From positions 40,376,410 to 40,440,409 of the forward strand of contig JARDVH010000124.1 of NCBI GenBank assembly GCA_030324005.1: a stretch of 64,000 nt of DNA. The letters are read 5' to 3'. Made by a program: the position numbers. The stretch comes from Negaprion brevirostris. Taxonomy: Eukaryota. Of this stretch, positions 9,001-15,000 are shown in pieces (positions within the stretch are counted from its first letter, which is position 1; every line of letters begins with the position of its first letter).

Positions 9001-12000
9001 AACCAAACAGTACTGCTCAGCTGTTCAACAATACTATTCACCAGCGTTGTAAATAATTGGGTGCTAGTCTTGAAGTGATATTAAATTTTAAAGCTTGTTC
9101 TTACTCTTTTTGCCACTTCAGCCTATTCCTTGTCAACCAAATTTCCCTCTTAAGCTGTTGGGCTGAAAGTTAGGCATGGTAGGATTAACATTTTTTGATC
9201 ATGCAATATTAGTGATCCATTTTAGAGGCTAGTTAGATCAATCCCTGCGTCCAGATTCTACTGCTACAAAATCCTTTGTATGAAATGAAAATTGATACCA
9301 ATAGTAATCCCATGATTGCAGCTTTGATTTCAAGTGATTTTTATGTTGGATAGACAATAAAGAAGCATTCAGTTCAATCAGAAATGGAAGCAAAATTCTG
9401 CTGAATATAAGGAATATACTTATTCCCACCTCACTCCCCATGCATATACAAAGCAGTGTACAATCTCCATGCTCCAACACACCATTTCCCAGCCACAATG
9501 TTGTCTTATACTTGACGTTATTCTGCTCCCTGGCTGTACTCAGCAGCTCCACATTGCTTCTCCACTGTCGCTAATGCTTCCTTGATGACTGAATTAAATG
9601 AGCATTAATGGCTTGTGTGCAATTTTTAAATTCTTAGCATAATGTTGCAAAGCTATTGCGTATATGCAGATTAATTAATTCAGGTTTTAGGCAGTATACA
9701 AACTGTTCAGTTCAAGATAAACATGGTTGAGACTAAGACCGGTTGAGAGAGTTGCAAGTCCAGGAATAATCTGGTTTAGGACGAGTTTGATATGCTTATG
9801 TCAACTTTGATATGTGCATTGAAAGTGAAGTGATTTTTTTTCATAAGCATGCAGTTCCATCTGCACTGCACAGTATTGTACTAAAACTGTTTGAAGAAAT
9901 GTAAAACATTTTTTTAAACCAGCTTTGTTGTTTTGTTTAACTTTTTTTTCTGCACTTGTATTTGAATTTGGTCTCTTGTAAAGCAAGTCGATGCATTTCC
10001 TTTCTGTTGGGGTAAATGAGTACTTGCTAAACAATTACAAAAGAATCATGCTGCATTGGCCCTATGTGTGTACCATTTAAATGACACTGCTTAGTAGCTT
10101 TTAAGATAAACATGTAGTTATTAATGGTTGAAACTGCAGGAATTAAAAGCTGAATGCTTATTTTATAAGACATTGCATAGAATAACTTACACTGAATTAT
10201 TGTATTGCTAGAAAATGGTAACAGCTGAAAAATTCAAATAAAGTCTCAGCGGCTGTATTTTTATGTTTTGCAGCTTGTACAAATCATCATAAATACAACA
10301 CACCTGGAACAGGCCTGTAAATACCTTGAGGACTTTATAACCAACATCACTAATGTTTCCCCTGAAACTGTGCACACCACACGACTTTATGGGCTGTCCA
10401 CATTCAAGGTATGTGCAATGTGGATATGTTAGCAATGCATATGAGGAAGTACACCTTGTCATTGCTATAATTGTGTAAAACAATTTAATTACTATAATTT
10501 GATTTTGTGCATGTATTTGAGATCTGGCACTTAAAGCTCATATCAAAATACTTTTGTAAGATGAAACATTTGGCCAGAAAGAAATAGGTGTTCAATTGGA
10601 AAACCTATTGGCCCTGAACTTTCCATCACCATTCTTTTTGGATGATTCAGCCAGTTGATCTGTTCTAGAAGTACCATTATTTTCTAAAAGTATAATTTTC
10701 CATCTGGTTATAAAATTTTTTGCCTGTATTTTGGCTTTGGAAGATACACTTGAAAAATGTTCCTATGCATTATTGACTTTTCGCTTCTGTGAACTAATGC
10801 ATACCAAATTACCTCAAACCTGTATCTAACCTCCAGCACAGTATTTGCTATACATGTATCAAACACGTTTTTGTTTTATTTTCATTCAGGTGTTTAGTAA
10901 TATCAATATGATAGACTTGGAACATGTTGATTTCAGATTGTAATTTCTTTGTCCTCAGATGTCCTGTCAGTGTTCTGTTTGCCTTTTAGTTTGATGTTAA
11001 AGGAAACTGGAAATATGATACATTAATTTATTTTCTGAAACTTGCCTGATCCAATATCAGGATTGTGTTTTGTAGATGTGCTGAATGATTACTGTTTTAC
11101 AAAGTGATTAGAAAAAAATTTTAACATTTGACAGTTGAACATAGACTGAAAGTTTCTGCAATAATAATGTATATCTAAATTATTTTAAATAATGGATTTT
11201 TGCAGGATGCTAGACATGCAGCAGAAGGAGAAATATACACGAAACTTAACCATAAGATTGATGAATTCATACAGTTGGCTGACTATGAATGGACTATGAC
11301 AGAACCCAATGGTCGAGCCAGTGGTTATTTAATGGATCTTATAAATTTTCTCAGAAGCACTTTTCAAGTTTTTACACATTTGCCTGTGAGTATTAAATAT
11401 AAGAATGAAAATCCTAAAATAACAAGTGCAATTATTTTCTTGGCTTATTTCCTGAAACCACTTAAATTTTCCTGTTATTCAAGCCTATGATTTTTTAAGA
11501 CCATGCAGATTACTGTAATACATGCTGTTAGCTTGAAAACAAATTAGAATGTCACTTTCTTTCCAAATAACTTCCTTGAATGGTTCTTGATGTGTGAGCT
11601 AAAAAGCAAATGAGCTTCACTGTTGGAAGAGAATTTCAATCAGCTACACAGGTGGCATTAATCCAGTTTTCAAAGATCTCCAAGTGTATTGAGAAAAAAC
11701 AGTGGCTTTATCTACAAAATGTACTTCTGTCCTGGCATTGATATTAAACTGCTTTCAAAATCAGACAAGATAATCTTTAAAATAAGAATTACCTTTTCTA
11801 CATTGTGCAGCAGGACTGAACAATGTGAAAGGCTGTTCATTTTTTAAAAAATTGCCACATAACACTCCCATAAACCTAAATATAAAGTGAATGTGATTGC
11901 ACAGAATTAAGGCCCTTAGATGAGGGTTTGTATGGACATTTAATGATTTTTGTATTGTGAAGATGTCCATCTTGCAGCTGATCTAATTAGTAATAGTATG

Positions 12001-15000
12001 TTTTACTTTCCTTTTTTATTATTGGTGTTCACACTTCTTTCCACACCTGTTTACATTTGATTTTTTGTTTTGATTTCCTTGCTGGGTTCCTTCTCAGAGT
12101 AACGTCAATCACCATGCAGCAATGTCGGTGAGTAGCTGAAGAAAGCATGCACATCTGAAGGCTATGAACTGGCTACAGGCTTGTTGCCCAAGTCGAGTAA
12201 CCTTCCATATAAATTTAAAAATCAACAACTAAACCTGCCCTTCCCTACACTAGCTTTTGCTTGTTCTATATAGAACACATGAATGAATGATCTATAACAG
12301 AATAGGCAGGAATTGGGTTATCAATAACATTCTGTGATAGGGCAGCCTTCAAAATGCATCTGTCTGTTGTAGTGGTTGTTGGTTGTGTTTAACAGAATTA
12401 GCCCTTCTACCGAAAGATGGAAAGATTTAAATGTGTCTGAACAGTAGCATACAACAGCATTGATTGCTAGAAAGAACAGACTTTAGGCAACACAAATTTT
12501 CTTTTGTTAAATGTGATTTAAAATATAATCTTTTGATTATTGAACTTGATTATACAGTCTTGTGGACTTTAGAAGAAAAATATATATTTAACATGAAACT
12601 TGATGTTCCATTCTTCTTGTGTTTATAGTTTTTCTTTCATCCCTATGAGTAAATTGTGTATTATTGGAGCACCACAGAATTGAGATGCACCATGTACCAG
12701 TGGCATCCAATCTTTCCATGGAATCGGAAAGTATTTTGTCTCCCAAAAAAAATGAGTCCTGTTACAACCACCACGTGATGTTGCAATTTCTAGTTACAAA
12801 ATACAAGTGATGCTGACAAAATTTGCAGTCAGCATTTGACACTTGTGCTTTATGCTGCAGAAGTTACTGAAGACTAATTCAATATTTACTTTTCATCACT
12901 ATCTCATAATCTATTGTTTGTAGAATTAGCCATATTAGCAAATGTTAAGAACATAAAGCAGTTGGCTTAAAAAACGATTATAGCTGCTTGAAACTAAGTT
13001 TGTTAGATTATTCAAAGCTGTAGTGGTGTGATGAAGCAGTTCCTTTGGTTGCTCTTAAAATATTCATTCCATTTATAATTTGGGGTGGATAAAGCTTACT
13101 CTCGTGCACTTTTTAAGAAAAATACCGGATTTAAAAAATTGTAATTGTATGCATGACAAATCTGCTTTCCAGCCATTCCCTTCCACTACACTGTTATTTC
13201 TAAACCTCTTGACATTGCAATGTGAGACACCCATGTGGCAACTGTCTGCATTTTGAAGATATTCAATATCTTGAACCCAGTGCCCAGTTGTCCACTTTTG
13301 TAGATCAAAGTAGAGATTTTGAACTTTCATGCTTCACTTAAATCACCAAGAGCCATTCTGCCTCTATTGTAATAATGGCCCTGTCTGCTTCATTTGCAAC
13401 ACTGCCCCATCCCCCTCCCCTTTCTGCTGATCCTTGTCCTTTCTGAAATGAAATTGAAAAAGAGCATTGTATTTACCCCTATTAAGTTGCATAAAAACAA
13501 CTTGATTAACCAGGAGCCTAAGGAAAAGAATGAGAATGCCTATTTGTGTGGTAGTGAAATCAGGAATTCTCGTGCACAGTGTGAAGAAACGCACAATCCC
13601 CCAGTGTGGCAATGGCAGTGAAAAACTAAGACTAGTGATGAGGGATGAATCAGATGAGAGTGCTAATGTGAAATGATGTAAAAGAGAAGTTTCAGTGGAG
13701 CTGTGGGAGGAGGCTGCAAGTGCATCTGTCAACAAGGGGAGGGATGAGGAATTCCTGTGCGAACTGGTGGGGAGGAGTAAAGTGTTGTCTTGATATGGGG
13801 GAAGGGAGAGAAGAGAGAATGTGAAGTGGGGAAGGGGAAATAAGAAGAGCTCCATTGTGAACTGAACACTGAAGTTGGGAAGAATGCCAGTATGAACTGA
13901 AGGGATTAAAAGGAGACCATTTTAAAACAATTAAACAAAACCAATGTATACATATGTACACAAGAATTCTTCTGCAAGAATTGAGGGGACAATCTGCAAA
14001 TTGTTGCTGTTATCTTCTGTGATACAACAGAACCATAAAATATCTACAGTGCAGATAGAGGCCATTTGGCCCATTAAGTTTGCACTGACACTCTGAAAGC
14101 ACATCACACCCAGGCACTCCACGATGGAATGTTGGGTATGTCTTCCACAAAAGTACAAGCATTGCCCTGCTATACTTTTTATAAAATTATGTTCAGGATT
14201 GTTCCTTATTAGCTTTCTTCGAGCTGTCTCAATTCTATTGAAGCTTTCTACTTCAGCATTTATGAACACAGGCCATGCACCCCCAAACATGTAAAACATT
14301 GACTTTGTTGGAATAAATACTGCGTTAGTATTTGCTGTCTTTCATTTTTATCCCATGTGAAGTGACTTTGGAGTCTTGCATCAGTTAGTGCATATCGTGC
14401 ATTATACAGTTAGCAATGCTGGTAGAAGAGCCTTGCATGTCTGAAGATAGCAAAAATGCCTCATTTGTTGACTTGTGTTGGTCCACATGGTGAGGGCAAA
14501 GTGCAATGACTCAGTGACTTGGGAATAACACATCAGCAGGGGTGTAATGAATAGTTTAAAGTTTGTTCAAGCTGAAAATCTATTGACCACCTCCCTAAGC
14601 TACAGCCTCACTTCCAGTCCTCTGTTAAGTACACTGCTGTATAATGGCTGATAAAAGCAGAATGTGCTAAAAGTGCTCAGCAGGTCAGGTAGCATCTATG
14701 GTGAGAGAAAAAATTCTTCACCTAGAATTTTGTGAAGAACACTGAGCAGTGGCAACAGAGGCACCTTGCATTCAAGGTGAAAGCACTGCATTGTGTCCAG
14801 CTGATGCCTCCATTCCAGAAGAAATGTGGTGAATATTTTTGCCTTTGCAAACAGTGTCAGTTACTGTCTTGATATGGATTTGCCCTGCAGGCTGCCTAAT
14901 ATTACCCATGTCCCTGGGGTGGTTTGGAAGGATCCAGTAGAATGATAACTTCATGTTGTGATAACCTTACTAATTTCAGAATTAGTCTGCCTCATCTGCT

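What the first reader, a model, noticed from the sequence alone, without database searches (positions are those of the whole stretch)
11997..12150. In-frame 30-nt candidate microexon in EXOC6 with a neural-microexon signature
Seen: no AG dinucleotide from 11997 to 12095, a T/C-rich tract, then ttctcAG|AGT AAC GTC AAT CAC CAT GCA GCA ATG TCG|GTGAGT. The exon is 30 nt, stop-free and phase 0-0, matching the host intron, so it would insert SNVNHHAAMS between FTHLP and GKVAQ. A TGC lies 16-18 nt upstream of the exon (12080-12082) and GCATG 18 nt downstream (12145-12149). Established: UGC near the 3' splice site is the SRRM3/4 microexon enhancer, downstream GCAUG is an RBFOX inclusion signal, and the Sec15 C-terminal domain binds Rab11-family GTPases. 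Inference: a tissue-regulated exon that remodels a loop of the Rab-binding region of the exocyst. It is absent from the canonical human protein as I recall it and invisible in the ORF track.
Basis: partly seen in the sequence, partly recalled or inferred. Interest (0 to 1): 0.78.

Follow-up and report, generated by a model that had tools for sequence, protein, structure and literature searches.

The report
Conserved 30-nt alternative exon of EXOC6
The 30-base candidate is a genuine alternative exon of the exocyst gene EXOC6 that jawed vertebrates share and that public gene models already annotate; it lengthens one surface loop of the protein, and where it is used remains untested.

Summary
The exon is real. 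Annotated EXOC6 isoforms carry a 10-residue insert at exactly this junction (FTHLP|…|GKVAQ) in sharks, rays, a chimaera, ray-finned fishes, amphibians, reptiles, birds, a marsupial, cetaceans and a colugo. Of 182 named proteins, 131 have the insert, and N2, A7, M9 and S10 are invariant in all 131. The window's SNVNHHAAMS fits this pattern. Insert-plus and insert-minus isoforms coexist within single species.

AlphaFold models of two Callorhinchus isoforms show a confident 4-residue helix-helix turn becoming a 12-residue, low-confidence loop in the Sec15 C-terminal domain.

The proposed SRRM3/4 and RBFOX regulation is untested. TGC within 30 nt occurs in 41% of random windows and GCATG within 30 nt in 3.3%. 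The published EXOC6 microexon is a different, 12-nt one further downstream.

Verdict: a real exon, already annotated, of uncharacterised function. The window is chondrichthyan, not human.

The parts
5856..5967 (+). EXOC6 coding exon (…STEIDDMLRK…IGLTE), context
   Evidence: tblastn of Callorhinchus isoform X2 P0026 residues 508-546; borders read
10274..10408 (+). EXOC6 coding exon (LVQIIINTTH…LSTFK), context
   Evidence: tblastn; borders cag|CTT and AAG|gtatgt
11206..11385 (+). Upstream flanking exon, 180 nt, 60 codons, ends …FTHLP on a codon boundary; donor GTGAGT
   Evidence: Pfam Sec15_C positions 181-241, E 3e-17; 100% identical to cartilaginous-fish EXOC6 proteins
11997..12095 (+). 99-nt AG-free zone with T/C-rich tracts upstream of the acceptor
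   Evidence: 15 of 8090 AG-AG gaps in the window are this long or longer
12080..12082 (+). TGC at -18..-16 of the exon, between a U-rich tract and the AG (candidate SRRM3/4 enhancer; untested)
   Evidence: by chance present in 41% of 30-nt windows
12096..12097 (+). Acceptor AG (ttctcAG|)
12098..12127 (+). The 30-nt phase 0-0 alternative exon, SNVNHHAAMS
   Evidence: orthologous 10-residue insert in 131 of 182 named EXOC6 proteins
12128..12133 (+). Donor GTGAGT (full match to GTRAGT)
12145..12149 (+). GCATG at +18..+22 of the downstream intron (candidate RBFOX site; untested; not the full TGCATG)
   Evidence: chance 3.3% within 30 nt, 12% within 100 nt
35905..36046 (+). Downstream flanking exon, 142 nt, begins GKVAQTACMS…
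   Evidence: Pfam Sec15_C positions 243-288, E 2.4e-13
48976..49049 (+). Next EXOC6 coding exon (…FASSEPVPGF…IDLRQ), context
   Evidence: tblastn; borders

Best explanation
Window 12098-12127 is the orthologue, in an unnamed cartilaginous fish, of an ancient alternative cassette exon of EXOC6 (Sec15). It is 30 nt long and phase 0-0.

Shown:
- The exon has a full-consensus donor (GTGAGT), a pyrimidine-rich acceptor behind a 99-nt AG-free zone, and an open frame.
- The same 10-residue insert (consensus NNNNDHAAMS; here SNVNHHAAMS) sits at the same junction in annotated isoforms throughout jawed vertebrates.
- Insert-plus and insert-minus isoforms coexist in one species.

Inferred from models of the Callorhinchus isoforms: inclusion leaves the two flanking helices unchanged. 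It turns the tight 4-residue turn between them (THLP) into a flexible loop of about 12 residues on the C-terminal Sec15 domain, the part that binds Rab GTPases.

Inferred only:
- Inclusion is probably tissue-restricted, and the loop probably tunes a protein contact of that domain.
- The neural SRRM3/4 plus RBFOX route is one candidate programme; I give it about 0.35.
For: Sequence anatomy.

Rarity of the architecture: the AG-free gap is in the top 0.19% (15 of 8090). It is the only one of 654 in-frame candidates in the intron that has both a GTRAGT donor and a pyrimidine-rich acceptor.

Gene identity: Pfam Sec15_C on both flanking exons, contiguous in the profile (241|243). Named EXOC6 hits are 100% identical to the upstream exon.

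Conservation:
- In one search, 102 named proteins of the 120 listed were examined. 49 have a 10-residue insert before GKVAQ and 2 more have it before an alternative downstream junction. 45 have none.
- In one search, all 80 of the 80 further named proteins have the insert. That query carried the insert, so the ranking favoured them.
- Overall 131 of 182 have it, with N2, A7, M9 and S10 invariant in 131 of 131.

Alternative use: Callorhinchus X2 and X4 differ only by these 10 residues; Amblyraja X2 and X6 likewise.

Structure:
- The Drosophila Sec15 C-terminal crystal chain 2a2f aligns across the site with a gap exactly at the insert.
- AlphaFold, insert-plus isoform (mean pLDDT 83.9): helix 630-646, loop 647-658, helix 659-683, with pLDDT below 50 at 653-659.
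- AlphaFold, insert-minus isoform (mean pLDDT 84.7): helix 630-646, turn 647-650, helix 651-673, with block pLDDT 87-91.
- The fold matches 2a2f, with TM-score 0.81 normalised to the target.
Against: - No transcript evidence from the window's own species was available, so inclusion here is inferred from orthologues.
- The seven unnamed transcript-derived proteins with a 100% identical upstream exon all lack the insert, so the skipped form may dominate in whatever was sampled.
- The counts are of database isoforms, not independent species, and many are automatic models.
- The structural inference uses Callorhinchus proteins as stand-ins. They differ from the window at insert position 1 (N against S).
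- A low pLDDT does not prove disorder.
- None of 24 distant Sec15 representatives and none of 103 named insect Sec15 proteins has an insert. This limits the exon to vertebrates as far as seen. The 24 distant representatives are single sequences per cluster and so are blind to isoforms; the insect set does include several isoforms per species.
Confidence: 0.88

Rival explanations
1. The exon is a switch of the neural and sensory microexon programme. SRRM3/4 would bind the UGC at -18, RBFOX would bind the GCAUG at +18, and together they would drive inclusion in neurons.
For: TGC lies between a U-rich tract and the AG. There is a long AG-free zone and a strong donor. A preprint describes just this layout for SRRM3/4-dependent microexons. 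In it the Py tract and branch point lie far from the AG, there is a UCU_CUC[N1-50]_UGC enhancer, and a UGC lies between branch point and AG in 79% and 74% of two microexon classes (passages of 10.1101/2024.09.17.613571). GCATG within 30 nt downstream occurs by chance in only 3.3% of windows. The same gene has a published Srrm3-linked 12-nt microexon.
Against: TGC within 30 nt occurs in 41% of random windows. The downstream motif is GCATG, not TGCATG. At 30 nt the exon falls outside the 3-27-nt class used in the tables I searched, and it is absent from them. In the supplement search of PMC9303857 (12 of its 17 files; files 13-17 not searched), file 1, which holds a sheet of retina-enriched exons longer than 27 nt, gave one EXOC6 hit, the 12-nt event. 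PMC12626424 and PMC8797185 list no 30-nt Exoc6 event. PMC5989265 gave no Exoc6 cassette at all (file 13 unsearched). Motif conservation could not be tested.
Confidence: 0.35
2. The exon is real, but another programme controls it (for example muscle, endocrine or developmental), or it is included broadly at a moderate level. The TGC and GCATG would then be incidental.
For: Both isoforms are annotated in many species without tissue information. The motif statistics are weak. The exon is absent from the neural and retinal lists searched.
Against: The splice-site architecture (long AG-free zone, distal U tract, strong donor) is what the preprint describes for regulated microexons. GCATG this close is uncommon by chance (3.3%).
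Confidence: 0.5
3. It is a chance pseudo-exon: an AG, an open 30-nt frame and a GT that are never spliced in.
For: The 24.5-kb intron holds 654 in-frame, stop-free AG...GT candidates of 9-51 nt.
Against: Only this candidate has both a GTRAGT donor and a pyrimidine-rich acceptor. Its peptide matches the conserved insert of 131 annotated proteins at all four invariant positions.
Confidence: 0.01
4. The exon is constitutive in this species, that is, always included.
For: The splice sites are strong.
Against: Related cartilaginous fishes have both forms. All seven unnamed transcript-derived proteins with the identical upstream exon lack the insert.
Confidence: 0.03

Closest known systems
The 10-residue alternative insert annotated in vertebrate EXOC6 isoforms (e.g. 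Callorhinchus milii isoform X2, Amblyraja radiata X2, Ambystoma X1, Macrotis lagotis X1)
   Same: Same junction (FTHLP|GKVAQ), same length and same invariant residues N2, A7, M9 and S10. Both forms occur in one species.
   Different: The window has S at position 1, where the cartilaginous fishes seen have N. S also occurs in caecilian and sturgeon isoforms. The window's exons are 92-98% identical to Callorhinchus, not 100%, so this is another species.
The published 12-nt EXOC6 microexon (HsaEX0023471 / DreEX0031112), retina- and neural-enriched
   Same: Same gene and same C-terminal region. It is also a short in-frame insert in a low-confidence loop, after LLEK at about residue 770.
   Different: It is a different exon about 110 residues downstream, 12 nt and 4 residues long (IYKR, VHRG). 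It has measured tissue data: human retina PSI 39 against 1.7 elsewhere. Its flanking exons were not found in this window.
SRRM3/4-dependent neural microexons as a class
   Same: A short in-frame surface-loop insert in a trafficking protein, a strong donor, a distal pyrimidine tract and a UGC before the AG.
   Different: It is 30 nt, above the 27-nt limit of that class. No expression or dependence data exist, and it is not in the lists searched.
Drosophila Sec15 C-terminal domain (PDB 2a2f)
   Same: The flanking helices align (E 4e-87), and the fold matches with TM-score 0.81.
   Different: The fly chain has no residues at the insert. None of 103 named insect Sec15 proteins has an insert there.

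Membership tests
EXOC6 / Sec15 (Pfam PF04091 Sec15_C) | Flanking exons match the Sec15_C profile above the curated cut-off and are contiguous in it | tested here: met
   63.4 and 50.5 bits against a cut-off of 28.3; profile positions 181-241 and 243-288
EXOC6 / Sec15 (Pfam PF04091 Sec15_C) | Orthology to EXOC6 rather than another paralogue | tested here: inconclusive
   The best hits are all named exocyst complex component 6 or 6-like.
Conserved vertebrate EXOC6 30-nt alternative exon | Located in the intron between the FTHLP and GKVAQ exons, 30 nt, phase 0-0, AG/GT borders | tested here: met
Conserved vertebrate EXOC6 30-nt alternative exon | Peptide fits x-N-x-N/S-D/H-H/Y-A-A/S-M-S with N2, A7, M9 and S10 invariant | tested here: met
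   SNVNHHAAMS against 131 of 131 invariant positions
Conserved vertebrate EXOC6 30-nt alternative exon | Alternative: both included and skipped mRNAs in the same species | not testable with these tools
   Shown for Callorhinchus and Amblyraja models. No transcripts of the window's own species were identified.
SRRM3/4-dependent neural microexons | Length 3-27 nt (the definition in the tables searched; one abstract uses 30 nt or less) | tested here: not met
   The exon is 30 nt. The definitions were seen in the abstracts listed (PMC7935315: 3-27 nt; PMC11648925: 30 nt or less).
SRRM3/4-dependent neural microexons | UGC between the branch point / Py tract and the AG, with a distal Py tract and a strong 5' splice site | tested here: met
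   TGC at -18, 99-nt AG-free zone, GTGAGT donor. The TGC alone occurs by chance in 41% of windows. The feature description comes from the passages.
SRRM3/4-dependent neural microexons | Neural-enriched inclusion and loss on SRRM3/4 depletion | not testable with these tools
   No RNA-seq was within reach. The exon is not in the supplement tables searched.
RBFOX-activated exons | (U)GCAUG in the proximal downstream intron | tested here: met
   GCATG at +18..+22; there is no TGCATG. Chance is 3.3% within 30 nt.
RBFOX-activated exons | Motif conserved in orthologous introns; inclusion depends on RBFOX | not testable with these tools
   No vertebrate genomic collection was available; genome contigs holds bacteria and archaea only.

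The most novel reading that the evidence does not exclude
EXOC6 would carry a two-microexon code on its Rab-binding C-terminal domain, dating from the common ancestor of jawed vertebrates. One part is this 30-nt loop exon and the other is the known 12-nt retinal and neural microexon about 110 residues downstream. The annotated isoforms show the two used independently: Amblyraja has +30/-12 and -30/+12 forms, and Liasis has +30/+12. Together they would retune which Rab GTPase or motor the exocyst picks up in neurons, photoreceptors or other specialised secretory cells. The 30-nt exon would be driven by SRRM3/4 and RBFOX.
Probability: 0.15. Interest if true: 0.6.

Novelty: already known. Interest (0 to 1): 0.3.

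Why it matters
The exon shows that a tool-free reading of splice signals can recover a real 30-nt exon from inside a 24.5-kb intron.

Biologically, the insert is strongly conserved: four of its ten residues are invariant in 131 of 131 annotated proteins from sharks to mammals. It sits on the exocyst domain that contacts vesicle Rab GTPases. Two searches pairing EXOC6 with microexon or SRRM/RBFOX terms found no paper that describes it. A broader search held 4,167 papers, of which I saw 30 listed, none on this exon. Its function and tissue pattern are therefore an open and easily testable question. The existence of the exon is not new.

Tried and rejected
- Literature. EXOC6 with microexon gave 2 papers, both about circular RNAs (listing only). 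EXOC6 with SRRM4, SRRM3, nSR100 or RBFOX gave 25 listed of 347, none containing EXOC6. EXOC6 with cassette or alternative exon terms gave 30 listed of 4,167, with one incidental EXOC6 mention.
- Supplement searches for a 30-nt Exoc6 event.
  - PMC9303857: only the 12-nt event; files 13-17 not searched.
  - PMC4387716: 2 small files held, nothing found, file 2 not searched.
  - PMC8797185: only a 110-nt Exoc6 exon and a 69-nt Exoc6b exon.
  - PMC12626424: only the 12-nt event.
  - PMC5989265: only one Exoc6b row; file 13 not searched.
- Rab11-binding residue. A search for Sec15 with N659A or N709A found 0 papers. Two reviews gave only the citation of Wu et al. 2005. I did not see that paper, so what I say of its content is recalled.
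- RNA-gene rival. There were no Rfam matches in 11000-13000 at E up to 1.
- RNA structure. Window 12050-12180 folds no better than shuffles (z +1.24).
- Repeat or transposon origin. Window 11800-12400 has no second copy in the window.
- Deeper origin. None of 24 distant Sec15 representatives and none of 103 named insect proteins has an insert. The third homologue search was meant to reach EXOC6B or basal chordates but returned insects only, so EXOC6B, lamprey and invertebrate chordates stay unchecked.
- The 12-nt microexon and the last coding exons were not found in the window.
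Full report
**What is in the sequence**

- The upstream EXOC6 exon is 11206-11385. It ends on a full codon with …FTHLP and is followed by GTGAGT.
- The last AG before the candidate is at 11995-11996. The stretch 11997-12095 has no AG and is rich in T and C.
- The acceptor AG is at 12096-12097.
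- The exon is 12098-12127, 30 nt with no stop, and reads SNVNHHAAMS.
- The donor at 12128-12133 is GTGAGT.
- TGC lies at 12080-12082 and GCATG at 12145-12149.
- The downstream exon begins at 35905 with GKVAQ. It ends at 36046, not 36048.

The host intron is 24.5 kb and holds six runs of N. I left these as they are.

**Is it more than chance?**

Only 15 of 8090 AG-to-AG gaps on the two strands of the window are 99 nt or longer. The intron holds 654 in-frame, stop-free AG…GT candidates of 9-51 nt. Three of them have a GTRAGT donor. Only this one also has a pyrimidine-rich acceptor (0.78 against 0.39 and 0.39).

The two regulatory motifs are weaker. TGC falls within 30 nt in 41% of random windows. 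GCATG falls within 30 nt in 3.3% and within 100 nt in 12%. There is no TGCATG.

**Gene and organism**

The two flanking exons were searched separately. They match Pfam Sec15_C at profile positions 181-241 and 243-288, so nothing canonical is missing between them.

The upstream exon is 100% identical to proteins named exocyst complex component 6 of Callorhinchus, Amblyraja, Carcharodon, Mobula, Stegostoma and Hemitrygon. It is 90-95% identical to tetrapod EXOC6.

A tblastn of Callorhinchus isoform X2 finds five exons in the window covering residues 508-733. Four of them are 92-98% identical; the hit over the upstream exon reads 89.6% because it runs past the exon borders. The window is therefore a cartilaginous fish, but not that species. 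I do not take it for human.

I built, translated and searched no joined model of the window's exons. Database isoforms served as stand-ins where a whole protein was needed.

**The exon is real and old**

- One search listed 120 proteins, of which 102 are named. In these, 49 carry a 10-residue insert between FTHLP and GKVAQ, and 2 more carry it before an alternative downstream junction. 45 have no insert and 6 are other forms.
- A second search used a marsupial insert-bearing isoform as query, which favours insert-bearing hits. It added 80 named proteins, and all 80 have the insert.
- The carriers are sharks, rays, a chimaera, bichirs, sturgeons, gar, bowfin, many teleosts, caecilians, axolotl, lizards, snakes, turtles, birds, a marsupial, four cetaceans and a colugo.
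- The variants are NNNNDHAAMS (74), NNNNDHASMS (23), NNNNDYAAMS (16), SNTNDHAAMS (6), NNVNHHAAMS (4), TNSNDHAAMS (4), NNVSHHAAMS (2), SNNNDHAAMS (1) and TNNSDHAAMS (1).
- N2, A7, M9 and S10 are invariant in 131 of 131.
- The window's SNVNHHAAMS has all four invariant residues plus the V3 and H5 seen only in cartilaginous fishes.
- These are counts of database isoforms, many of them automatic models, not of independent species.
- Callorhinchus X2 and X4 differ only by these ten residues, as do Amblyraja X2 and X6. The exon is therefore alternative.
- Seven unnamed transcript-derived proteins with the identical upstream exon all lack the insert.
- None of 24 distant Sec15 representatives and none of 103 named insect Sec15 proteins has an insert at the site.
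- EXOC6B, lampreys and invertebrate chordates were not reached. The third and last homologue search returned insects only.

**Where it sits in the protein**

The Drosophila Sec15 C-terminal crystal chain (2a2f) aligns to Callorhinchus X2 residues 409-739 at E 4e-87, with a gap exactly at the insert.

| AlphaFold model | Mean pLDDT | Helix before | Connection | Helix after | Confidence at the site |
|---|---|---|---|---|---|
| Insert-plus isoform (X2) | 83.9 | 630-646 | loop 647-658 | 659-683 | pLDDT below 50 at 653-659 |
| Insert-minus isoform (X4) | 84.7 | 630-646 | 4-residue turn 647-650 | 651-673 | block pLDDT 87-91 |

The insert-plus model matches 2a2f with TM-score 0.81. The exon therefore lengthens one helix-helix turn into a probably flexible loop and leaves the helices unchanged.

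From memory of Wu et al. 2005 (not seen; only its citation appeared), the C-terminal half of this domain binds Rab11, mainly through one helix. I could not verify which helix (one search found nothing), and I had no model coordinates to measure distances. That the loop touches the Rab site therefore remains a guess.

**Regulation**

A preprint (passages) describes SRRM3/4-dependent microexons as follows:
- strong donors;
- pyrimidine tract and branch point far from the AG;
- a UCU_CUC[N1-50]_UGC enhancer;
- a UGC between branch point and AG in 79% and 74% of two microexon classes.

The window's layout fits that description: a 99-nt AG-free zone, a U-rich tract, then TGC at -18, then TTCCTTCTCAG, and a GTGAGT donor. 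The fit is qualitative only.

At 30 nt the exon lies above the 27-nt limit used in the tables I could search, and it is not in any of them. Those tables hold a different EXOC6 microexon of 12 nt (HsaEX0023471 / DreEX0031112). Its human retina PSI is 39, against 1.7 elsewhere and 3.7 in neural tissue. Isoform comparison suggests that this corresponds to a 4-residue insert after LLEK, about 110 residues downstream; I did not check this assignment against coordinates.

The supplement search of that paper gave one EXOC6 hit in file 1, the 12-nt event. File 1 also has a sheet of retina-enriched exons longer than 27 nt, of which I read only the first rows. A large mouse cortex table gave no Exoc6 cassette.

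A record of this exon could therefore lie in material I could not see.

**Rivals**

- A chance pseudo-exon is excluded by the conservation.
- An RNA gene, a stable RNA fold and a repeat origin found no support.
- A constitutive exon is unlikely, given the paired isoforms in relatives.
- What stays open is which programme controls inclusion. I give the neural SRRM3/4 plus RBFOX route about 0.35, and another or broader pattern about 0.5.

**Verdict**

The exon is real, alternative and inserts into a loop. Its regulation and any effect on Rab binding are unshown.
- It is already known in public annotation, although the searches that paired EXOC6 with microexon or SRRM/RBFOX terms found no paper describing it, and none of the 30 papers listed does.
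- Interest is modest.

Noticed in passing
not in window (flanking exons for residues 734-813 not found in 49050-64000): EXOC6 isoforms also differ by a 4-residue insert after LLEK (IYKR in Amblyraja, VHRG in Liasis). By its size and position it probably corresponds to the published 12-nt retina- and neural-enriched microexon HsaEX0023471 / DreEX0031112, though I did not check this against coordinates. Annotated isoforms combine it freely with the 30-nt exon. It also falls in a low-confidence loop of the model.
   Followed up: partly
window 35962-35970 (within exon 35905-36046): Carcharodon and Rhinatrema isoforms skip the first 21 residues of the downstream exon (FTHLP[insert]MLLD / ILLD). This suggests an internal acceptor after the codon for Q in …SLMQ|MLLD. 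The window has CAC (His) there instead of CAG, so that internal AG is absent in this species.
   Followed up: partly
window 12098-12100: The first codon of the exon is AGT (Ser), whereas all six insert-bearing cartilaginous-fish proteins seen have Asn. Ser also occurs in caecilian and one sturgeon isoform.
   Followed up: yes
window 1099-62651 (17 runs of N; six inside the host intron: 15269-15665, 16730-16829, 22256-22265, 23865-23874, 26705-26874, 28452-28551): Assembly gaps or masked stretches. The intron content, and therefore my count of candidate pseudo-exons, is incomplete. The runs were left unfilled.
   Followed up: no
window 1-2000 and 52001-54000: Strong local strand asymmetry: GC skew is +0.29 at 1-2000, and at 52001-54000 GC skew is -0.27 with AT skew -0.19. 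This may reflect simple repeats or transposon fragments.
   Followed up: no
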